Assembly (NCBI GenBank): GCA_964597545.1
Contig: CAZQXN010000010.1
Location: 140-64,139, forward strand
Length of the DNA: 64,000 nt
Source of the DNA: an uncultured Planctomycetia bacterium
GTDB lineage: Bacteria; Omnitrophota; Gorgyraeia; 1-14-0-20-64-10
Direction of reading: 5' to 3'
Shown: one piece after another, positions 11,076-60,965 of the stretch
How positions within the stretch are numbered: the first letter of the stretch is position 1
How the letters are laid out: each line of letters begins with the position of its first letter
Made by a program: the position numbers and the translations under genes
Notes under the pieces: generated by a model
The model's database searches: none
Told to the model about the DNA's origin: nothing
Seen by the model: only the letters and a program-made list of their open reading frames with translations

Positions 11076-11149
11076 TTACCATAGGGTCTGACCCTTAGGT
11101 ACACAATTGGCCCATCTGCGCTGTACCAAAGGGTCTGACCCTTTGGTAC
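11076..11149. repeat. two tandem copies (one degenerate 11076..11102, one perfect 11123..11149) of 27-bp palindrome GTACCAAAGGGTCTGACCCTTTGGTAC
   Basis: Seen directly; the same palindrome recurs at 41182..41208 and 60479..60505. Confidence 0.85.
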
Positions 11150-11153
11150 AGGA

Positions 11154-30216: not shown

Positions 30217-30333
30217 ATTCAGGTGTCCGTCATTCCCCTGGAAGGGGGAATCAAACGCTGTCCTCGACTTGATCGAGGATCCTCGCCCCTCGGTCGAGGC
30301 CGAGGGCAAGCTTCGCGAGGAGACTTAAGGAAT

Positions 30334-30777
30334 TCACGTTGTTTCTACAACGAAGAGGGTCTGACCAAACTCGACCGGCTGAGCATTCTCAACCGAGATC
30401 TTAATCAGCTTGCCCCTGACCTCGGATTTGATCTCGTTCATCAGCTTCATCGCCTCAACGATACATAGGACCTGCCCCACCTCGATGGTCTGACCCGCCT
30501 CTACAAAAGGCGGTGCCTCAGGGGCGGGCGCTCGGTAGAAGGTCCCCACCATGGGAGATTTGATCTCTGTGCCTGCCGGCACCTCGGGTGCGGCGGGAGC
30601 GGCATCGGCAGCAGGTGCCCCAGCGGAGGGAGCAGGAACCCGCTCCACCACAACGCCGGCAGGACCCGAGCCCTCCTTGCGAAGGCGGATCTTCATCCCT
30701 TCGCGCTCCAGCTCGATCTCACCCAACCCATGTTCGTCCATGAGTGCGATCAGTTCTTTCACTTCTTTTAGATTCAC
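30334..30777 (-). CDS. accB: biotin carboxyl carrier protein
   Basis: Biotinyl-lysine motif IVEAMKLMNEI; Ala/Pro-rich linker. Confidence 0.9.
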   Translation of the reverse strand: MNLKEVKELIALMDEHGLGEIELEREGMKIRLRKEGSGPAGVVVERVPAPSAGAPAADAAPAAPEVPAGTEIKSPMVGTFYRAPAPEAPPFVEAGQTIEVGQVLCIVEAMKLMNEIKSEVRGKLIKISVENAQPVEFGQTLFVVETT

Positions 30778-33437: not shown

Positions 33438-33547
33438 ATCCTTGGTACCAATCCTTGGTACCGGGTACACTTGTCAACAAATCCTTGGTACCGGGTACAC
33501 TTGTTGACAAGTGTACCCGGTACCATTGTACCCTTGTACCCGGTACC
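33438..33547. repeat. cluster of GGTACC-rich repeats: 30-bp direct repeat x2 (33451..33480, 33481..33510) and 38-bp near-perfect palindrome GGTACCGGGTACACTTGTTGACAAGTGTACCCGGTACC (33487..33524)
   Basis: Seen directly; motif (A/T)GTGTACCCGGTACC recurs at 37262..37303. Confidence 0.85.
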
Positions 33548-33551
33548 AACG

Positions 33552-37196: not shown

Positions 37197-37261
37197 AAAT
37201 GTCGTAACTCCTTGTAAGAGTAATAGGATACCTTAACCCGAAGCCACCGTCAAGCTGTACC

Positions 37262-37303
37262 CGGTACCGTTGTTGATAAGTGTACCCGGTACCGGGGTTG
37301 AGA
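37262..37303. repeat. two direct copies of GTGTACCCGGTACCG separated by 9 nt, upstream of rpsU
   Basis: TGTACCCGGTACCGTTGTTGATAAGTGTACCCGGTACCGGGG seen directly; same motif as 33438..33547 cluster. Confidence 0.8.
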
Positions 37304-39119: not shown

Positions 39120-41084
39120 TTACAAATCCCAGCCTACACCGGCCACCCAGGTCCTGGGAGGTGCGGGGTTCTCACCGGTAGAAACCGTGCTTCCATTGGA
39201 GGAGGCAAAGGTCTGGTACTCCTCATCCAAGAGATTGAGTACCTTGAAATAGACCTTCGTTTTGGGAAACTGGTACTCAACGGTACCGTTGACCACCCCG
39301 TACTTGTCAGCCAGCATCTTGTTGTTAAAATCGTTGATCCGAAACTGCTTACCCACCCACAGCGCATCCAGGTCCACAGTGAGTTTCTCGGTCACCGGCA
39401 GGCGCAACCCCCCTGTGATCCGCGCCTTTGGGGTAATGGGCAAAGTGTTGCCGGTATAGGCGCCCTTATGAAACCTGGCCCGGGTCCAACTGAAGGTGAG
39501 GTAGTAGGAGAGAGCTTTAAGTTTTTCCAGAATTCCGCTTACATTGAATTCCAGCCCCGCCCGTGTTGTGGTGTAGTTGGCATTGGCCCAAGTGGTGGCA
39601 TCATAAAGAATCTCATCCTTGGTATGCACCACGAACCCGGCTACCTTGACCTTGGCCCAGGGGGCAGCCTTCCAGCGCACCCCGCCTTCGTAGTGATCTG
39701 CCTGCTGAGGCTTGAGGGTAACCGCATCGTTGTAGGGCGGCAGCGGTGCATCCAGGTCATCAATGTTGGGCGCCTTAAAGGCCCGGGCCGCGCTCCCATA
39801 CAGATTCAAGCGGTCACTGAGCTTGTAGTTGATGCCAAGCTTGGGGCTTCTCCCGGAAAAGCGCAAAACCCCGGAGAAGGCCGGCCAGGTCAGATCCTCA
39901 TCATACCGGCTCTTGTCGTACCGGAAACCCAGCGTTACCGTGAGCCTCTCCAGCAATTCAATCGCCTCCTCCACAAAGAGCCCATAGATCCATCGGTTCG
40001 ACTCGGATTTGGTGGCGGTTCGGTTCCCGGTCACTGCTTTGTCCTTGGCCCAATCCACGCCAAAGATGGTCGTCGCACCCCAGCCCTCTGCCGAAAACTC
40101 ATGACTGGCACGTAACCCTGCGCCGAAGGTAGAGGTGATCGTCCCAAACCGGGCGGGCGTGACTGAGTCTACCTCCCGCTTGTGGAGAAAGAGGTTGCTG
40201 ACCACTGTCCAGGAATCGTTGAGCCGGCGAGTCAGGCTCAGGGAAGCCGAGCGCTGCCAATCATCAAAGAGGCCAGGGAATGATCCAGCCCCCTTGCGGT
40301 TCTGTTCAACAGTCGCTGTGGTAAGCCCACCCGAATAACCGCTGGTATCTTCGTGGTTGGTCAGATGAAGGTCGATCTGCGTCTCTGGGGTGGGACTCCA
40401 GCCGGCAAAGAGATTTGCGGTGGTACCCCGAGATTTTATGCGATCCCGGTAGCCGCCCCCCTCCATCCGGGTCACCCCTAAGCTGTAGGAGACCTCACTC
40501 AAACGACCCTGCATCAGTGCGGTAGACCGGTGATGAAGATAGCTGCCAATCTCTGAGGAGCCCTCAAACTCGAGGGGTTTCTCCCCCCCCTGCTTTGTGA
40601 CGATGTTGATCACACCGCTCAAGGCCCCTTCCCCGTAAATGGTCCCGCCGCCGCCTCGGAGAATCTCAATGCGCTCGACCTGCTCCATGGGAATGGCCAG
40701 CCAGTGAACCTCGTCCCCGGTGATCCGGTTCTGGCGCACACCGTTGACCAAAACCAAGGCGCCGGTCCGGGAGCTGTTGACAAACCCGCGTAAGTTGAGC
40801 CCCGAATCGGCCCCAAGCCCAAACCCACGCGAGTCAATAAGGCTGACCCCCTCGTACTGTGCCAGCAAATCCGGAAGGTTCGCAGCCCCTGAGGCGGTAA
40901 TCTCCTCTTCAGAAACAACGGTGACATTGCCTGGGAAGGCCGATTCTTGGATCTGAAGACCCGGGATGCGCCGTGGGGTAATGAGGAGATCGCCTAAGGA
41001 GACTGCCTCTTCGGCAGCTGAAACTACCGGTGGGAAAAACGTGAGCGCGGCCCCGATGATCAGGGCCTTAAAACAAAAATTCAT
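39120..41084 (-). CDS. btuB: TonB-dependent outer membrane receptor (BtuB-like, preceded by cobalamin riboswitch)
   Basis: Signal peptide, plug domain with NLRGF..ALVLVNGVRQN...ERIEILRGGGGTIYG, long beta-barrel. Confidence 0.85.
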   Translation of the reverse strand: MNFCFKALIIGAALTFFPPVVSAAEEAVSLGDLLITPRRIPGLQIQESAFPGNVTVVSEEEITASGAANLPDLLAQYEGVSLIDSRGFGLGADSGLNLRGFVNSSRTGALVLVNGVRQNRITGDEVHWLAIPMEQVERIEILRGGGGTIYGEGALSGVINIVTKQGGEKPLEFEGSSEIGSYLHHRSTALMQGRLSEVSYSLGVTRMEGGGYRDRIKSRGTTANLFAGWSPTPETQIDLHLTNHEDTSGYSGGLTTATVEQNRKGAGSFPGLFDDWQRSASLSLTRRLNDSWTVVSNLFLHKREVDSVTPARFGTITSTFGAGLRASHEFSAEGWGATTIFGVDWAKDKAVTGNRTATKSESNRWIYGLFVEEAIELLERLTVTLGFRYDKSRYDEDLTWPAFSGVLRFSGRSPKLGINYKLSDRLNLYGSAARAFKAPNIDDLDAPLPPYNDAVTLKPQQADHYEGGVRWKAAPWAKVKVAGFVVHTKDEILYDATTWANANYTTTRAGLEFNVSGILEKLKALSYYLTFSWTRARFHKGAYTGNTLPITPKARITGGLRLPVTEKLTVDLDALWVGKQFRINDFNNKMLADKYGVVNGTVEYQFPKTKVYFKVLNLLDEEYQTFASSNGSTVSTGENPAPPRTWVAGVGWDL

Positions 41085-41181
41085 GATTCACCTCCCTCGA
41101 GTGAAATCGATTTATTTTAGAGAGGCATCGCGAGGTCTCCTGGCTTCCGTTCTTCCTACTTTCCGCGCCTTCCCACCCTAA

Positions 41182-41208
41182 GTACTAAAGGGTCAGACCC
41201 TTTGGTAC
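41182..41208. repeat. copy of 27-bp palindrome (GTACTAAAGGGTCAGACCCTTTGGTAC) between riboswitch B12 box and receptor start
   Basis: Seen directly; 1 arm mismatch relative to copies at 11123 and 60479. Confidence 0.8.
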
Positions 41209-41335
41209 ATGAGCAGTGGCATTTGTGCGGATTTCGTCCCGGTTACAGTTGCGGGGCAGCGCCTGCTTTTACAGGCTTCCCTGACACGATGCTGCTATCC
41301 AAATTGTGGAATGGTTGTACAACAAGCGGGGCAAT
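41195..41335 (-). promoter_or_regulatory. cobalamin (AdoCbl) riboswitch in 5' leader of TonB-dependent receptor gene
   Basis: Minus strand reads ...CAGGGAAGCCTGTAAAAGCAGGCGCTGCCCCGCAACTGTAACCGGGACGAAATCCGCACAAATGCCACTG... containing conserved GCTGCCCCGCAACTGTAA core and GCCACTG B12 box; boundaries approximate. Confidence 0.75.
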
Positions 41336-41350: not shown

Positions 41351-44300
41351 TTACGCGTAAACCGCGTGAATGAGCTGACCCTGCTCATCCTCGACGGTAA
41401 CAAAGCGAAGATTCAATAGTTGCCTAACGGTGAGATTCTTATTGATATTCAAAACCACCCAGGCCAAAGGATGCAAAGCCTCCATCTCTTGAATCGAAAA
41501 AGCCTGCATCCGAACCCCATCGACAGAGCCTGCCGGCGCAACCAGCATCCAATCGTAAGCTCCCAGGCCCGGCGGACGAATGAGGCTGGGGCGGTTACTA
41601 AGCAGATCCCGCAAATCCTCCTTGTGAACAACAAAGTCCATTCCTTTCGCCGGACGCTGGCGAAGGTGCCTGTAGATCGCCCGCCCAGCGGCCAATCTTA
41701 AGCTTGGGTCGGCAAACAGGGTAAAGCGCCCGGGAATCACTGGAGTCACCTCCCCTGCCGCTTGGATCTCAACCCGCTGCTGTTCGGTCAGTTGGCCGCC
41801 GTACTGCTCAAGGAAGGGATCGGCCTGAATCGTCTGATCCCTTCCAAAAACCCGGTCCTGCCACCACGGCTGCTGCGCCACGGCGGCCGCCATACCGCCA
41901 ACAGTTGCTGCATGCAGGACTTGCCGACGGGTCATCTCTGCAGAAGCCACCATACCACCACCGGTGGCTCCCTGTGGGTTGGACTGCCGAATCATCTCTT
42001 GAGCGGCTGCTATAGCGCCGCTCGTGACTGCCTGTAAGGTTGACTGCCGAATCATCTCTGCAGCGGCTGCCCGCATTGCCCTTTCATCCCCCTCCTCCAA
42101 GCCGGAGGAAAGGATGTCGTTGTCAGAAATAAGGGAGCAGTCTTCTGCTGTAGTAATCTGGAACATCTGTTCGTCTCCCAAATCAAATTGAATGGAGCTT
42201 AAGCCTCTCTCGTCATCGGCAATCAAGCTGGCGCTGGCAATACCACCCGCATCATCCACAGCATTGAAGAACTCGCGAATGGCCTTGGCACTCTTAGCCG
42301 GGTCTGCACCAAAGCCGGGACCGAGCAACAGCGTTGCTTTGCGATCCGGCTTTAATTCGAAAAACCTTCCATGCCGCACATCCACAAACAGCCCCCCCTC
42401 GGCGATGTCGTATGCCAATAGGCGGTAGTCGGCAGGAGCTCCCGGAAGTCCAGGGCGATCTACAACTGATGGTAACACCTGCTCCGGTCTCCCTGCTCCA
42501 ACCCAATCCACCGCTTCAATGGCGCCTGCGCCATCCACATGAATCAGGAATGGGATTTCATTTGTCTGCGTAACGTGGTCTGCCAAACGTCGGTGAAACT
42601 CGGTAAAGCCGTCCGACTCCTGCACGGAGGGCAAGACAGGAATCAAGGCAATGCGCTGGCTTTTCTTGTCAAGGGCAACAGGGCCCTCGCGAACCAGCTG
42701 GCCACCGATCTCCAGCTCAACAGGATGGTTGGCGTCAGTCCATCCCAGAGAGACAGAAAAAGTTACGGTGCGCGGCTCAGAGCGCAAGTCCCGATCCAGG
42801 ATGGTTAGGATCACGGCCTGTTCCTGAACGGCCTGGAGCGACAGGGGTGTGTCCTGAGCGCTACGCAAAAGATCAATCACGATTCGCTCGGGAAACAGAA
42901 GCACAACTTGCCCAATCTTAATCGGGACCGAGATTCCCCCCGTGCTTATCGACCCAGTTCGCTGTTGTTCCAAAGAGGCAAGTCGATCCTGCAGAAAACC
43001 AGCCAGCCTGTCAGGACCCCCGTCTCGCAGCTTTGACTCGAGGAAATCTTTTTTCGCAATGACGGTTCGAGCCAACGAATCCCTTACATACAGCGTTGGG
43101 CCACCCAGCGTCCCATGCCCTTGCCTAAGAAAGCCTTTGCCCTCCAAAACAGCATCGAGTCCCACCTCATGCTCGCCAACCTCCAATGTCACAATAGCTG
43201 CCTGAAACGGAAGCGTAAGCCGGACTTCCTCCAAGCCGGAGGTGGGTTGTTTAACTTGCCTGATCTCAACGCGCTTGGGAGCTTCTGCCCACTGATCAGG
43301 ACGCTTCATCGGGAAGAACAACTCACCATCGGGGTCTTCAGGGGGGGCCAAAATCACCATACTGTATCGGCCTGAAATAAAGATGTTGTCCCCATAAACC
43401 CGCTGCATCGCCAGATCAAGCTCACCCCCACGCTCTTCGTCGATATCGGCTCCATCCAACACCTCAGCAGGACTTTTTGCTGTCGCGTTCTCATACAGAT
43501 AGATTTTCATGCTCGAGGGATGGTTTTCTAGGATATCCTTTCTCACGTCGGAATATGGATTCCGCGACAAATTTACCATCTCATTTGTCAGCTCCTCATC
43601 GCCTTCCTCCAAGCCGGTGGAGTGAGGTGTCCGAGAAACCGATCGGAAATGCGGCTGGGGAACAACAGAGTTTCGGAACTGACGATTTAAGGATGGGAGG
43701 ATGGTTTCTGTGAGCACTCTATCCTCGAAAGCGTCATGATGCCCTCTGCTTCTGGGTAACGCCTCTCTTGGCTCAAAAAGGAATAGCCTGTCGTCATTAA
43801 ATCTCGCCTGGAGGATCCGCTCATGTCGCCCGACATTGGGAGCGTAGACACCAATCAAAACATCTTCAGATATGCCAACCTGCATAGCATCGATGAGCGT
43901 TACGCCTTGGGGTGCTTCGGCACCACTATGGAAATCAAGATCCAACAGGATAATGGCATCGTAGGGCCCGGTTTTCTTCCATGCACTCGCAAAAGCCGGG
44001 CCGGTGTTCGTAACGTAATCCACACGGATGCCTGAACGACCGTGATCGCGAAGCCACTCAGACGTCATCTCTTCGTACACTTGCCCATCACGGGTAGTGC
44101 AGGCAACGATCAAAACCCGCCGCAGCCCCTCCTCCTGGCCGGCGGCAGAGCCTGTTGTGAGGAAACTGAAGGTGCGCCGGGCAATATCCGATTGCAAATC
44201 AGGCGATAGAATAGAATCAAACGAGGTCAGCTTAGAACCGAGCATGTCGGTAGCTTGAGCCTTAGCATTGACAAGGTCTGTAATGTTACGCGTTGTAGCT

Positions 44301-45571
44301 TGTGGTTGCATGTTTGCGTGGATGACTCCGCCGCCTTGCGCAACAGATTGTGCTATCAGCGTTGAGGCTGCCATCAAGTAAAGTGCGCGTCCTGCCTGGG
44401 TTTGACCTCGGCCCAAGATCTCCGGAATCGCTTGTAAGATGCGGTCGGCAGCTCCGGAGTCGATCTTGTAAAAGATGTCGGGCAATTGTCCGGCACGCCG
44501 CATCTCATCAAAACGACCAAGAATATCCTCAAGAGATATATCCATTTCGAACGTCCCTGCACCCATGAGATCCTCCATGGCACGGATAACTGCCACTGAA
44601 ACCACAGCCATGTCCCTTGGATGGACAGCTCCGGGCCAGTCTTTCCAGACAGTCGGCTGCTCTTCCTGCCCAGCAGCAGGGGGACCCCCTGATTCATTTT
44701 CCCCCACATCCTCCTTGGGGAGAAACCGCTGTCGCAGCCTGAGGAATTGATCCACGGCAATGGGTGGCTCTGGCAATCGTTCTGCCGGCGTTACCCTCCC
44801 GTAATCATCAATCAAAAAGACCTGGATAACATGTTCCCTCTCCTGGCCCATTTCATTCTGTCTATTCGCCGCACGGTAACTCACCCCAGGATCCAGATAT
44901 TCGCTTAAGAACTGCTTAAATCCAGCAGGGTTTCTCATGACAACGACGGCTCGTTGGACAACTGGATTTCCGCGAGCATCCTTCCCTTGGAAGGGCGAGC
45001 GCTTCACTGTCGTAACGGTCACGTACCCATCGGGATGAACCCTAAACATGGCGGGATGATCAGCATGCACATCAGGGTCAGGATTCTCTTCGAACGGCTC
45101 GATGTACCACCTGGAGGGAATGGCAAAATCCCGCCCGGTTTTTGAATCATGAACAGCCACCTTGATCTGAATGAAAGGGACCGCCACCAGAGCTTCCCCT
45201 CGGAGTTCCTCGGGGATGTTCAACTGAAGGGTCATATGCAGTGGCGCAAAGTTGGTCTTGGGATTGGGAATATGCGCAGTCAGCGTTGGATCGTCATCTG
45301 CTTGCGGGAGTGGTTGGCGCAGCAGCATTCGTCCGCCTAATGCTGCCAAACCGACTCCGGCAACAGCAATTGCCCACCTTACCAGGAATGATCGACGGGG
45401 TCGTACCTCTTCTAAACCAGAAGAGAGTGCATCGGCAACCAAACCTTGGTCAGCTTGGATGCGGCGCAGGGCAAAGGTGGGGCTCGGCCAAGCCAAGCAA
45501 AGGCTTAACAAAATGGCCAGGGATCTGGCGATAACATTATGCTTCTTTACAGGGCTGAATGGTGTCATCAC
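41351..45571 (-). CDS. giant (1406 aa) signal-anchored secreted protein of unknown function with internal tandem repeats
   Basis: Single long ORF; N-terminal signal/anchor AILLSLCLAWPSPTFA and second hydrophobic segment; recurring SGLEEGDE motif; three ~20-aa tandem repeats AAEMIRQS...; N-terminal ~280 aa paralogous to partial gene at 1..847. Confidence 0.7.
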   Translation of the reverse strand: MMTPFSPVKKHNVIARSLAILLSLCLAWPSPTFALRRIQADQGLVADALSSGLEEVRPRRSFLVRWAIAVAGVGLAALGGRMLLRQPLPQADDDPTLTAHIPNPKTNFAPLHMTLQLNIPEELRGEALVAVPFIQIKVAVHDSKTGRDFAIPSRWYIEPFEENPDPDVHADHPAMFRVHPDGYVTVTTVKRSPFQGKDARGNPVVQRAVVVMRNPAGFKQFLSEYLDPGVSYRAANRQNEMGQEREHVIQVFLIDDYGRVTPAERLPEPPIAVDQFLRLRQRFLPKEDVGENESGGPPAAGQEEQPTVWKDWPGAVHPRDMAVVSVAVIRAMEDLMGAGTFEMDISLEDILGRFDEMRRAGQLPDIFYKIDSGAADRILQAIPEILGRGQTQAGRALYLMAASTLIAQSVAQGGGVIHANMQPQATTRNITDLVNAKAQATDMLGSKLTSFDSILSPDLQSDIARRTFSFLTTGSAAGQEEGLRRVLIVACTTRDGQVYEEMTSEWLRDHGRSGIRVDYVTNTGPAFASAWKKTGPYDAIILLDLDFHSGAEAPQGVTLIDAMQVGISEDVLIGVYAPNVGRHERILQARFNDDRLFLFEPREALPRSRGHHDAFEDRVLTETILPSLNRQFRNSVVPQPHFRSVSRTPHSTGLEEGDEELTNEMVNLSRNPYSDVRKDILENHPSSMKIYLYENATAKSPAEVLDGADIDEERGGELDLAMQRVYGDNIFISGRYSMVILAPPEDPDGELFFPMKRPDQWAEAPKRVEIRQVKQPTSGLEEVRLTLPFQAAIVTLEVGEHEVGLDAVLEGKGFLRQGHGTLGGPTLYVRDSLARTVIAKKDFLESKLRDGGPDRLAGFLQDRLASLEQQRTGSISTGGISVPIKIGQVVLLFPERIVIDLLRSAQDTPLSLQAVQEQAVILTILDRDLRSEPRTVTFSVSLGWTDANHPVELEIGGQLVREGPVALDKKSQRIALIPVLPSVQESDGFTEFHRRLADHVTQTNEIPFLIHVDGAGAIEAVDWVGAGRPEQVLPSVVDRPGLPGAPADYRLLAYDIAEGGLFVDVRHGRFFELKPDRKATLLLGPGFGADPAKSAKAIREFFNAVDDAGGIASASLIADDERGLSSIQFDLGDEQMFQITTAEDCSLISDNDILSSGLEEGDERAMRAAAAEMIRQSTLQAVTSGAIAAAQEMIRQSNPQGATGGGMVASAEMTRRQVLHAATVGGMAAAVAQQPWWQDRVFGRDQTIQADPFLEQYGGQLTEQQRVEIQAAGEVTPVIPGRFTLFADPSLRLAAGRAIYRHLRQRPAKGMDFVVHKEDLRDLLSNRPSLIRPPGLGAYDWMLVAPAGSVDGVRMQAFSIQEMEALHPLAWVVLNINKNLTVRQLLNLRFVTVEDEQGQLIHAVYA

Positions 45572-60397: not shown

Positions 60398-60478
60398 AGG
60401 GTCTGGCTCCTTTTCGCACTTGAGACAACAGGCCAGACGAAAAGGTGCCTGACCCTTCTTTGTGCACGAAACGGTCTT

Positions 60479-60505
60479 GTACCAAAGGGTCTGACCCTTT
60501 GGTAC
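60479..60505. repeat. perfect copy of 27-bp palindrome GTACCAAAGGGTCTGACCCTTTGGTAC between rplO and secY
   Basis: Seen directly. Confidence 0.85.
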
Positions 60506-60518
60506 ATGTGGTGCAAAA

Positions 60519-60965
60519 TCACTGGCTCACCAGATCAGTCGCCCCCCCGGCATCAGCGATCTTTTGAACCGCCGACTTTGAAAACCGGTGGGCCTTGACC
60601 GTGAGGGCGCGCTTGAGCGTTCCCTCACCCAGAATTTTGATGATCCGTTTGCGAGTACTCACCAAACCTGCTTCTGCGAGAAGGGCCGTATCCACGACCG
60701 TTCCGGCCGCAAACTGGTTGAGCTGCTCAATGTTGATGATCTCAACCGGTTTGCGGCGGGAGTTTGTAAACCCACGCTTTGGGACGCGGCGAATGAGGGG
60801 CATCTGTCCCCCTTCAAACTCAGGGCGACGACTGTATCCGGAGCGGGACTTTTGCCCCTTGTGTCCACGGCCAGAGGTCTTGCCGTGGCCGGAAGATTCA
60901 CCCAGCCCCAAACGCTTGCGCCGTCGGGTTGCCCCTCGGGGAGCAGCAAGAGCATCAAGTTTCAT
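60519..60965 (-). CDS. rplO: 50S ribosomal protein L15
   Basis: MKLDALAAPRGATRRRKRLGLGESSGHGKTSGRGHKGQKSRSG canonical L15 start at internal Met of track ORF. Confidence 0.9.
   Translation of the reverse strand: MKLDALAAPRGATRRRKRLGLGESSGHGKTSGRGHKGQKSRSGYSRRPEFEGGQMPLIRRVPKRGFTNSRRKPVEIINIEQLNQFAAGTVVDTALLAEAGLVSTRKRIIKILGEGTLKRALTVKAHRFSKSAVQKIADAGGATDLVSQ

What the first reader, a model, noticed from the sequence alone, without database searches (positions are those of the whole stretch)
11076..11149. Family of 27-bp perfect palindromes GTACCAAAGGGTCTGACCCTTTGGTAC scattered in intergenic regions
The same 13-bp-arm palindrome occurs at 11123..11149 (perfect), with a degenerate tandem neighbour at 11076..11102. 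Further copies lie at 41182..41208 (1 mismatch) and 60479..60505 (perfect). All copies sit in short intergenic gaps immediately 3' of a minus-strand gene: the helicase-nuclease, the giant gene/riboswitch leader, and rplO inside the ribosomal operon. No T-tract follows, so they are not classical intrinsic terminators. The pattern fits a REP/BIME-like element or the operator of a dimeric DNA-binding protein.
Basis: seen in the sequence. Interest (0 to 1): 0.6.

Follow-up and report, generated by a model that had tools for sequence, protein, structure and literature searches.

The report
Mobile REP-like palindromes in an Omnitrophota genome
The 27-bp palindromes are real, recently inserted copies of a small selfish hairpin repeat; its 19-bp core recurs in about eleven bacterial phyla, in places beside IS200-like tyrosine transposase genes, so this is a new example of a known but little-studied kind of mobile DNA.

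Summary
Four copies lie at three intergenic loci, where none is expected by chance. The contig is from a Candidatus Omnitrophota MAG.

- **Recent insertions.** A strain about 93% identical in DNA lacks the palindrome at all three orthologous sites. Its rplO and secY overlap, whereas the window has a roughly 120-nt insert there. Its helicase–SPOR gap is 49 nt against 89 nt here.
- **Inside a riboswitch.** The third copy sits in the P6 hairpin loop of a cobalamin riboswitch. The relative carries a different insert at that spot, and a more distant relative has only a short loop.
- **Shared across phyla.** The inner 19-mer CAAAGGGTCWGACCCTTTG occurs 136 times in about 45 GTDB genomes of roughly ten phyla. 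Each lineage has its own complementary outer stem, and most copies are extragenic.
- **Next to transposases.** The core abuts Y1/HUH (RAYT-like) transposase genes in an alphaproteobacterium and a Prevotellaceae genome. Plasmid homologues of that transposase are flanked by inverted GGG(G)TCAGA motifs, which match the published TIRYT motif GGGGWSAS.

My conclusion is a REP-like, TIRtron-type non-autonomous repeat, probably moved by a Group-1 RAYT. It is not an operator or a terminator. No transposase gene lies in the window, so mobilisation in this genome is inferred, not shown.

The parts
11123..11149 (.). Perfect 27-bp palindrome. It extends to 15-nt arms at 11121-11151. It lies in the 89-nt gap between the helicase-nuclease stop and the SPOR gene start.
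   Evidence: Absent from the orthologous 49-nt gap of the ~93% relative L006-L009.
11076..11102 (.). Degenerate copy with 3 mismatches, 20 nt from the perfect copy and in the same orientation (centre T on the + strand in both). Its right-hand end on the mRNA strand (TGGTAA) is native flank that the relative shares.
41182..41208 (.). Copy with 1 mismatch at the tip of the P6 hairpin of the cobalamin riboswitch. Its centre base has the opposite orientation to the other copies relative to transcription.
   Evidence: 30-nt insert where the model has 4 nt; the fold keeps the GCCACUGC/GGGUGGGAAGGC helix; the relative has a different 50-nt insert; the distant relative L013 has a short loop.
41112..41306 (-). 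Cobalamin riboswitch aptamer, the host structure of the 41-kb copy, upstream of the TonB-dependent receptor gene 39120-41084.
   Evidence: RF00174, 81.1 bits, E 1e-20; Plug and TonB_dep_Rec domains.
60479..60505 (.). Perfect 27-bp palindrome (14-nt arms at 60478-60506) in the 121-nt rplO-secY gap.
60398..60457 (-). Second, 'opened' unit. The inverted half-motifs AAGGGTCAG and CAGACCCT are separated by about 43 nt and fold as a long imperfect hairpin. The hairpin contains the secY Shine-Dalgarno sequence AAGGAG and abuts the secY ATG.
   Evidence: (-55.5 kcal/mol for the whole gap, z = -5.2). Its left part resembles the L002 variant GTCCAAAAAGGGTCAGGCACTTTTTGGAC.
60400..60534 (-). Segment present in the window but absent from all relatives examined: 117 nt at 60400-60516 plus 8 nt at 60527-60534. 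It is bordered by a 7-bp direct repeat, GAGCCAG. It replaces the rplO C-terminus (..ATEPIPC* becomes ..ATDLVSQ*) and supplies a new stop codon and a new SD.
   Evidence: rplO and secY overlap or abut in L002, L003 and L010-L012.

Best explanation
The palindromes are copies of a small non-autonomous mobile repeat of the REP type, most like the TIRtron (TIR-type) repeats. Each copy is two head-to-head copies of the end motif AAAGGGTCWGA, overlapping at the centre. That motif flanks genes for one clade of IS200-like Y1/HUH tyrosine transposases, known as RAYT Group 1, subclass 2.1 or TIRYT.

What is shown:
- The copies are recent insertions in this Omnitrophota lineage.
- The 19-bp core is shared by REP-like repeat families in many phyla. 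In each lineage the stem is extended by its own complementary bases.
- In other genomes the core or its half-motif directly flanks RAYT-like genes.

What is inferred:
- In this genome a transposase of that clade, encoded outside the 64 kb or already lost, recognises the hairpin on single-stranded DNA, cuts at its foot and pastes copies elsewhere.
- Copies survive where an extra hairpin is tolerated: intergenic spacers, the tip of an existing RNA hairpin, and between coupled genes.
- Once inserted, the copies are transcribed as stable mRNA hairpins. These may secondarily affect mRNA stability or secY translation.
For: Real family: 4 copies at 3 loci against 0 expected.

Insertion polymorphism against a syntenic strain about 93% identical:
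- That strain has an empty rplO/secY site, where the genes overlap in ATGCTGA. The same holds in the relatives with 84-88% identical SecY.
- Its helicase-SPOR gap is 49 nt against 89 nt here.
- At the riboswitch P6 loop the relative carries a different insert, and the distant relative L013 has a short loop.
- In an unbiased list of indels of 6 nt or more, the three loci are among the few large differences.

Cross-phylum core: CAAAGGGTCWGACCCTTTG gave 102 blocks and 136 copies in about 45 GTDB genomes. I expect about 4 by chance (my arithmetic). Only 26% of copies lie deep in long ORFs, against 83% of random positions. The outer stem covaries across 23 lineages, with all four pair types; 0 of 500 shuffles reach the observed score, and it is 0.36 against 0.06-0.12 for slid controls.

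Transposase link:
- A Prevotellaceae Y1_Tnp gene has the palindrome at its stop codon and also inside its ORF.
- An alphaproteobacterial 237-aa Y1_Tnp gene has a palindrome doublet 41 nt upstream of its ATG.
- The two proteins are 34% identical over the HUH/Y core. Both match NCBIfam's REP-associated tyrosine transposase model, below its cut-off.
- The four closest plasmid homologues examined (41-50% identity) carry GGG(G)TCAGA 50-120 nt upstream. Three of them also have the inverted motif 4-130 nt downstream. The R. rubrum copy is flanked by AAAAGGGGTCWGACCCCTTTT palindromes.
- This matches the published TIRYT TIR motif GGGGWSAS and the reported self-complementary, dimer-forming TIR repeat families (PMC3733652; PMC6006769, section on subclass 2.1).
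Against: - No Y1 transposase gene lies in the window or in the relatives' syntenic DNA (hmmsearch; gene lists). The rest of the MAG could not be reached, so genome-wide copy number and a cognate gene are unknown.
- The motif here is AGGGTCAG, 7 of 8 against GGGGWSAS.
- The insertion junctions are not clean. The inserts are about 72 and 125 nt rather than 27 nt, and at two loci they replace native sequence.
- Only 3 of the 102 GTDB blocks hold a Y1 gene, and only 2 of those are directly adjacent to the palindrome.
- More distant plasmid homologues (40% identity or less) lack the motif.
- I could not scan a control palindrome of the same composition, so the chance baseline for palindromic 19-mers is only calculated.
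- No enzyme activity on this hairpin has been shown anywhere.
Confidence: 0.72

Rival explanations
1. The palindromes are operators for a dimeric transcription factor that controls the three downstream genes.
For: The 9-1-9 symmetric half-sites are typical of HTH dimers, and every copy lies upstream of a gene start.
Against: The sites are absent from the same leaders in a strain about 93% identical and in more distant relatives. One site is in the loop of a riboswitch hairpin. One lies between genes that overlap in all relatives examined. The downstream genes (SPOR protein, B12 receptor, SecY) have no common theme. In other genomes the same core is present in dozens of copies, as doublets and next to transposase genes.
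Confidence: 0.04
2. They are primarily functional RNA hairpins, such as mRNA 3'-end protectors, processing sites or attenuators, kept by selection for gene-expression effects. How they spread would be secondary.
For: All copies are transcribed within operons. They fold into 12-13-bp stems. The rplO-secY insert sequesters the secY SD in a stem. REPs are known to stabilise mRNA and to terminate transcription (PMC6006769, background section).
Against: They are absent from close relatives with the same operons, so they are not needed for expression. No T-tract follows them. The centre-base orientation is not constant relative to transcription. The riboswitch copy adds nothing to the aptamer consensus. 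This account does not explain the cross-phylum core or the transposase adjacency.
Confidence: 0.1
3. They are parts of a classical MITE, with terminal inverted repeats and a target-site duplication, mobilised by a DDE transposase of an insertion sequence.
For: At rplO-secY the whole insert of about 117 nt is bordered by a 7-bp direct repeat, GAGCCAG. Its ends (TTTTGCAC ... GTGCGAAAA) are weakly inverted.
Against: The other two loci show no such duplication and no shared sequence beyond the palindrome. What is conserved across phyla is the centre of the hairpin, not the outer ends, which is the opposite of a MITE. No DDE transposase recurs near the copies in 102 blocks.
Confidence: 0.07
4. The similarity to repeats in other phyla is convergent or due to chance. 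In that case these palindromes arose locally, for example by template switching, and have no link to Y1 transposases.
For: A/T-flanked G+C stems are generically favoured hairpins. No control palindrome could be scanned. Many of the GTDB genomes hold a single copy.
Against: The 19 of 19 identity, including the W centre, is seen in about 45 genomes against about 4 copies expected. The core is multi-copy within genomes and has lineage-specific extensions. It is directly adjacent to homologous Y1 genes in two phyla, and the same half-motif forms the TIR of their plasmid homologues.
Confidence: 0.06

Closest known systems
TIRtron / TIRYT-associated TIR repeats (Di Nocera et al. 2013, PMC3733652). 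TIRYT corresponds to RAYT subclass 2.1 (Quentin et al. 2018, PMC6006769) and largely to RAYT Group 1 (Bertels et al. 2017, PMC5581495).
   Same: The motif GGGGWSAS is matched 7 of 8 by AGGGTCAG here, and exactly by the R. rubrum, Iodobacter and Skermanella flanks. Published TIR repeat families can be self-complementary, moderately abundant and arranged as singles, dimers or clusters. The transposase is long (237-301 aa) and can carry a C-terminal HTH-like region.
   Different: No TIRYT gene is seen in this window. Here the two motifs are fused into one compact 27-bp palindrome. The host phylum, Omnitrophota, is not in those surveys. Identity of a 19-bp core across about eleven phyla has not, to my knowledge, been reported. 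Assigning the L051 and L064 proteins to subclass 2.1 is my inference from length and motifs, not a phylogeny.
Canonical REP / BIME and REPIN elements with RAYTs (E. coli, Pseudomonas; PMC3116915, PMC6006769)
   Same: The element is short, repetitive, extragenic and palindromic. It lies inside operons downstream of genes. It is associated in other genomes with a single-copy Y1/HUH transposase. Doublets are common: 23 inverted doublets in the alphaproteobacterial MAG.
   Different: There is no 5' GT[AG]G tag. The core is not species-specific. The window's doublet is direct, not inverted. The family looks young and is absent from a strain about 93% identical, whereas REPIN populations are described as old and vertically inherited.
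Cyanobacterial small dispersed repeats, SDR, 21-27 nt (Elhai et al. 2008; recalled from memory, cited as reference 43 in PMC3116915)
   Same: Similar size, hairpin-forming, and interpreted as mobile from insertions into otherwise conserved sequence.
   Different: The sequence is unrelated, and no transposase link is known for SDRs. I did not test this comparison here.
IS200/IS605-derived palindrome-associated elements (PATEs) and other MITEs
   Same: They are non-autonomous derivatives carrying the hairpins that a Y1 transposase recognises. Such elements insert without a need for long TIRs.
   Different: In PATEs, LE and RE are distinct imperfect hairpins in the same orientation with defined cleavage tetranucleotides. 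Here there is a single symmetric palindrome. No IS200/IS605 copy with these ends was found.

Membership tests
Canonical REP (GTAG/GTGG-tagged) | Repetitive: many near-identical copies in one genome | tested here: inconclusive
   There are 4 copies at 3 loci in 64 kb, against 0 expected.
Canonical REP (GTAG/GTGG-tagged) | Extragenic location | tested here: met
   All copies lie between called genes. Across GTDB, 26% of copies lie in long ORFs against 83% of random positions.
Canonical REP (GTAG/GTGG-tagged) | Hairpin with a fully paired basal stem of 7-20 nt and a short loop (PMC6006769, methods) | tested here: met
   Folding gives a 12-13-bp stem with a 3-nt loop.
Canonical REP (GTAG/GTGG-tagged) | GT[AG]G tetranucleotide 0-2 nt 5' of the hairpin foot | tested here: not met
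   The 5' flanks are ..TCCT..CACAT..CCTAA and ..TTGT. The only GTA-type tetranucleotide is GTAC, and it lies inside the stem.
Canonical REP (GTAG/GTGG-tagged) | Sequence specific to a species or genus | tested here: not met
   The 19-bp core is identical in about 45 genomes of about ten other phyla.
REPIN | Two REPs in inverted orientation that form one long hairpin | tested here: not met
   The 11-kb doublet has centre T on the + strand in both copies, so it is direct, with 47-bp spacing. For contrast, the alphaproteobacterial MAG has 21 of 23 doublets inverted, centre A then T.
TIRtron / TIRYT TIR-type repeat | TIR carries the motif GGGGWSAS (PMC3733652) | tested here: inconclusive
   The window has AGGGTCAG, a 7 of 8 match. 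Exact matches flank the R. rubrum, Iodobacter and Skermanella homologues, and GGGTCAGA flanks the Pseudoalteromonas homologue.
TIRtron / TIRYT TIR-type repeat | Copies flank a RAYT-like Y1 transposase gene in inverted orientation | not testable with these tools
   This cannot be tested for the window's own genome: no Y1_Tnp gene lies in the 64 kb and the other contigs were unreachable. In other genomes the feature is met: L119, L120 and L121 on both sides, L064 and L051 on one side.
TIRtron / TIRYT TIR-type repeat | Moderately abundant dispersed family, as singles, dimers or clusters, sometimes self-complementary | tested here: met
   The window has two singles and one dimer, all self-complementary. 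In other genomes the same core occurs as dimers.
MITE (DDE-type) | Conserved terminal inverted repeats plus a target-site duplication at every copy | tested here: not met
   A 7-bp direct repeat is seen only at rplO-secY. The loci share no flanks. The conserved part is the centre of the element, not its ends.
Intrinsic terminator | G+C-rich hairpin followed by a T-tract | tested here: not met
   No T-run follows any copy, and the scans find none at the palindromes.
Transcription-factor operator | Site conserved at orthologous promoters of related genomes | tested here: not met
   The palindrome is absent at all three orthologous sites in the ~93% relative, and at the rplO-secY and riboswitch sites of the more distant relatives examined.

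The most novel reading that the evidence does not exclude
The palindrome may belong to a pan-bacterial family of REP-like hairpin repeats. Its 19-bp apical core, CAAAGGGTCWGACCCTTTG, is conserved in about eleven phyla, while the basal stem is re-invented in each lineage. The family would be spread horizontally and amplified by Group-1 RAYT / TIRYT transposases. That is the largest RAYT group, and one survey reported that neither automatic nor manual searches found REP-like sequences near its genes (PMC6006769). The Omnitrophota copies would then be a very young invasion. They landed in a riboswitch hairpin loop and between the translationally coupled essential genes rplO and secY.
Probability: 0.45. 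Interest if true: 0.65.

Novelty: new member of a known kind. Interest (0 to 1): 0.45.

Why it matters
The result gives the least understood and most widespread RAYT group a concrete, sequence-defined DNA partner that can be synthesised and tested for binding and cleavage.

It shows that REP-like repeats are not always species-specific. Here one hairpin apex is shared across phyla, which points to horizontal spread of a transposase-and-hairpin pair.

It also documents how such elements reshape compact genomes of an uncultured phylum:
- They separate overlapping essential genes and rewrite a ribosomal protein's C-terminus.
- They supply a new ribosome-binding site.
- They lengthen a riboswitch helix without destroying the aptamer.

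There is a practical consequence for annotation. Repeats like these break assemblies: contig L002 ends inside a variant copy. They can also be mistaken for terminators or operators.

Tried and rejected
- **Strict scans.** Scans for the full palindrome found nothing useful. GTDB representative genomes gave 0 hits, IMG/VR gave 0, and JGI metagenomes gave one unrelated AT-rich contig, L001. This first suggested a lineage-private family. The relaxed core scan overturned that view.
- **Exact-protein look-ups.** Look-ups for this MAG failed, so the rest of the genome could not be read.
- **Nested insertion.** I first read the second hairpin at rplO-secY as a palindrome copy split by a nested insertion with a CAG duplication. 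I dropped this after finding that its left part matches an independent variant hairpin in relative L002. It is better described as an opened pair of half-motifs.
- **GTAC as signal.** I considered the GTAC ends as the analogue of the REP GTAG tag, or as a restriction-related signal. GTAC and GGTACC are not unusual in frequency. In other phyla the outer stem is different, so GTAC is only this lineage's basal stem.
- **Shared neighbouring genes.** All-against-all comparison of ORFs in the 102 GTDB blocks found no protein shared across phyla other than common housekeeping families and the Y1 transposase. DUF3987 genes recur near the Prevotella copies but not elsewhere.
- **Literature and structures.** Searches for the core sequence found only irrelevant primers. 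The supplements of the two key papers do not contain it. A PDB sequence search with the Prevotellaceae transposase found nothing.
- **Terminator and promoter readings.** These were rejected by the scans.

Full report
**Observation**

- perfect at 11123-11149 and at 60479-60505;
- one mismatch at 41182-41208;
- three mismatches at 11076-11102.

No match occurred in 100 dinucleotide-preserving shuffles. The perfect copies extend to 14-15-nt arms. Half-site searches find no further copies in the window.

**Organism and gene context**

The window is almost the whole of a 64,140-bp contig of a Candidatus Omnitrophota MAG. Its SecY is 100% identical to an NCBI protein on that contig, and the named next-best hits are annotated Omnitrophica/Omnitrophota.

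The copies lie between co-directional minus-strand genes:
- a UvrD/PD-(D/E)XK helicase-nuclease and a SPOR-domain gene;
- a 1406-aa ORF without Pfam domains and a TonB-dependent receptor;
- rplO and secY.

No T-tract follows any copy, and terminator and promoter scans find nothing at them.

**The riboswitch copy**

The 41-kb copy lies inside a cobalamin riboswitch aptamer (RF00174, 41112-41306, minus strand, 81 bits). The Infernal alignment places it as a 30-nt insertion at the tip of the hairpin that follows the B12 box, where the model has 4 nt. Folding keeps the GCCACUGC/GGGUGGGAAGGC helix and simply lengthens it.

**Comparison with relatives: the copies are insertions**

Cluster look-ups revealed a close relative in four JGI metagenomes. 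Its contigs are syntenic with the window and 92-94% identical in DNA. None of them carries the palindrome.

- *rplO-secY.* In the relative the two genes overlap (ATGCTGA). In two further relatives with 84-88% identical SecY they overlap or are 6 bp apart. The window has a 121-nt gap, of which 117 + 8 nt are extra. The extra segment is bordered by a 7-bp direct repeat, GAGCCAG. It changes the rplO C-terminus and provides a new stop codon and a new AAGGAG ribosome-binding site for secY.
- *Helicase-SPOR.* The gap is 49 nt in four relative contigs and 89 nt in the window. About 32 nt are replaced by about 72 nt that carry the two copies.
- *Riboswitch.* The relative has a different 50-nt insert at exactly the same place, made of two ATCGGTACCAGGTACC units that also extend the helix. 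A more distant relative, L013, has a short loop without any insert.

In an unbiased list of all indels of 6 nt or more between the window and the relative, these three loci and a few other hairpin-repeat loci account for the large differences. The copies are therefore recent gains in this lineage, not conserved regulatory sites.

**Beyond this lineage**

Strict scans for the whole palindrome found nothing in GTDB representative genomes or IMG/VR. JGI metagenomes gave one unrelated contig.

Relaxing the pattern to the inner 19-mer, CAAAGGGTCWGACCCTTTG, changed the picture:
- It gave 102 blocks with 136 copies in about 45 genomes. The simple expectation is about 4 (596 Gb x 4^-18 x 1/2, my arithmetic).
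- The hosts include an alphaproteobacterial MAG (56 copies in the fetched blocks), many rumen Prevotella/Prevotellaceae, Lentibacillus, Virgibacillus, Bacillus, Tissierellia, Acidimicrobiales, Eggerthellaceae, Solirubrobacteraceae, Gemmatimonadota, Spirochaetaceae, Chloroflexota, Planctomycetota, Fimbriimonadaceae and Saganbacteria.
- Each lineage extends the palindrome with its own complementary bases: GAAAT/ATTTC, CCACA/TGTGG, TGGGA/TCCCA, CCCCCATAA/TTATGGGGG, and TGTAC/GTACA in the window.
- In an alignment of 23 lineages, the four pairs just outside the invariant core are complementary in 18-21 lineages and use all four pair types. The covariation score is 0.36, against 0.06-0.12 for slid controls, and 0 of 500 shuffles reach it.
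- The copies avoid coding sequence: 26% lie deep in stop-free stretches of 150 codons or more, against 83% of random positions in the same blocks.
- In the alphaproteobacterium they are mostly inverted doublets (centre A, then T) 76-78 bp apart. Their A+T-rich spacers have diverged strongly.

**Link to a transposase**

An all-against-all comparison of ORFs in the 102 blocks found no protein shared across phyla except common housekeeping families and one small cluster. That cluster is a Y1/HUH transposase:
- The Prevotellaceae ORF L051:5496-6401 matches PF01797 (39 bits against a cut-off of 23) and NCBIfam's REP-associated tyrosine transposase model, below that model's cut-off. The palindrome lies at its stop codon, and a second copy lies in frame inside the ORF, encoding IIKGSDPLMI.
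- In the alphaproteobacterium, a 237-aa PF01797 protein has a palindrome doublet 41 nt upstream of its start codon and another 1.5 kb downstream.
- The two proteins are 34% identical over the HUH and Y..NP motifs.
- A tblastn search of plasmids with the alphaproteobacterial protein found homologues annotated as transposase. I examined seven of them.
- The four closest (41-50% identity) have GGG(G)TCAGA 50-120 nt upstream, and three also have the inverted motif 4-130 nt downstream. In Rhodospirillum rubrum the flanks are the palindromes AAAAGGGGTCAGACCCCTT and GGGGTCTGACCCCTTTT. In Pseudoalteromonas the TIR is AAAGGGTCAGAGTTGTTG, with inverted copies repeated in tandem downstream.
- The three examined homologues at 40% identity or less lack the motif.

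**Comparison with the literature**

Di Nocera et al. (PMC3733652) described RAYT-like genes flanked by terminal inverted repeats rather than by GTAG REPs. They named the transposases TIRYT and the structures TIRtrons. They noted a shared TIR motif, GGGGWSAS, and found that some TIRs form moderately abundant repeat families, sometimes self-complementary and organised as dimers or clusters.

Quentin et al. (PMC6006769) equate these with subclass 2.1. They say that neither automatic nor manual searches found REP-like sequences near those genes. They define canonical REPs by a GT[AG]G tag 0-2 nt from a stem of 7-20 nt.

Bertels et al. (PMC5581495) call the corresponding cluster Group 1. It is the largest and most widely distributed RAYT group, with some plasmid-borne members and signs of horizontal transfer.

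The window's palindrome reads as two copies of AAAGGGTCWGA fused head to head. AGGGTCAG matches GGGGWSAS at 7 of 8 positions. It lacks GT[AG]G, and its doublet is direct rather than inverted. I therefore file it as a TIRtron-type, REP-like repeat, not as a canonical REP or REPIN. Assigning the neighbouring transposases to subclass 2.1 / Group 1 rests on their length, motifs and flanks, not on a phylogeny.

**Mechanism**

Shown:
- recent insertion at three loci;
- a structure-preserving position in a riboswitch;
- a cross-phylum conserved core with a covarying stem;
- physical adjacency of the core or its half-motif to homologous Y1 transposase genes in several genomes.

Inferred:
- A Y1/HUH enzyme of this clade, acting on single-stranded DNA hairpins as IS200/IS605 and RAYT enzymes do, recognises the conserved apex and mobilises the repeat.
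- The gene lies elsewhere in this genome or has been lost.
- The inserted hairpins are transcribed and may alter mRNA stability or secY translation, because the secY SD lies in a predicted stem.

Not settled:
- what the mobile unit is, since the inserts are 34, about 72 and about 125 nt rather than 27 nt;
- what the target rule is;
- whether the 7-bp direct repeat at rplO-secY is a target duplication.

**Rivals**

- An operator is excluded by the absence of the sites in close relatives and by their positions.
- A purely RNA-functional element does not explain the phylogenetic pattern or the transposase link.
- A DDE-type MITE is contradicted because the centre of the element is conserved and its ends are not.
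- Convergence is unlikely, given 19 of 19 identity and the shared transposase context. The missing control scan keeps it formally open.

**Verdict**

The element belongs to the less familiar TIRYT/TIRtron branch of that world. It is a new member of a known kind in an unsurveyed phylum. The wider point deserves a proper survey: one hairpin core is shared across about eleven phyla.

Noticed in passing
window 33440-33550 and 37256-37293: There is a second palindromic repeat family, TTGGTACCGGGTACACTTGT(Y)(R)ACAAGTGTACCCGGTACCAA, with 19-25-nt arms. It forms a cluster between the Memo and DUF1844 genes and a copy upstream of rpsU. The ~93% relative has it in a different copy number and arrangement. 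In more distant relatives Memo and DUF1844 overlap, so this cluster is also an insertion.
   Followed up: partly
L004:3862-3911 and L005 (orthologue of window 41177-41211): The close relative's cobalamin riboswitch carries a different 50-nt insert at the same P6 loop. It is made of two ATCGGTACCAGGTACC units that pair with each other. The same hairpin tip was therefore hit independently, or its content was replaced.
   Followed up: partly
window 30227-30338; L010:12998-13056: A third kind of hairpin-rich insert lies between accB and accC. About 100 nt are present in the window and absent in the relative. It ends in TTCCCCCTTCCAGGGGAATGACGG. The relative has a similar TTCCCGC..GCGGGAATGACAG hairpin between infA and rpsM that the window lacks.
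   Followed up: no
L002:2873-2901: In the relative with 88% identical SecY, a variant hairpin, GTCCAAAAAGGGTCAGGCACTTTTTGGAC, follows the secY stop by 3 nt, and the contig ends inside it. In the window and the close relative, secY and adk overlap at this point. The variant resembles the left half of the window's second hairpin at 60432-60457.
   Followed up: partly
L051:5496-6401 (Prevotellaceae MAG CALBJW01): The RAYT-like gene itself contains the palindrome in frame (..GSKTCIIKGSDPLMIQL..), and a second copy provides its stop codon (..SSKGLTL*). This recalls the in-frame insertions of Rickettsia palindromic elements.
   Followed up: no
L018, L041, L098, L115 and other Prevotella blocks: Several Prevotella copies lie deep inside long ORFs. 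Large DUF3987 (primase/helicase-like) genes of probable integrative elements recur within 1-2 kb of copies in 8 genomes.
   Followed up: no
L024-L106 (Alphaproteobacteria MAG CBDCGJ01): There are 23 inverted doublets, most with a spacing of 76-78 bp. Their A+T-rich spacers are barely alignable between loci, while both 19-mers are perfect. Something keeps the hairpins intact while the spacer decays.
   Followed up: no
window 41351-45571: The 1406-aa ORF has no Pfam hit. It is by far the most divergent region between the window and the ~93% relative: 64-80% identity in patches, and 1076 aa in the relative.
   Followed up: no
L001:10239-10261 and L099:746-764: The single JGI metagenome hit (an A+T-rich contig) and Bacillus sp. 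J37 share the same extended form, TCAAC-core-GTTGA. L001 is therefore probably a Bacillus-like member of the same cross-phylum family, not a chance match.
   Followed up: no
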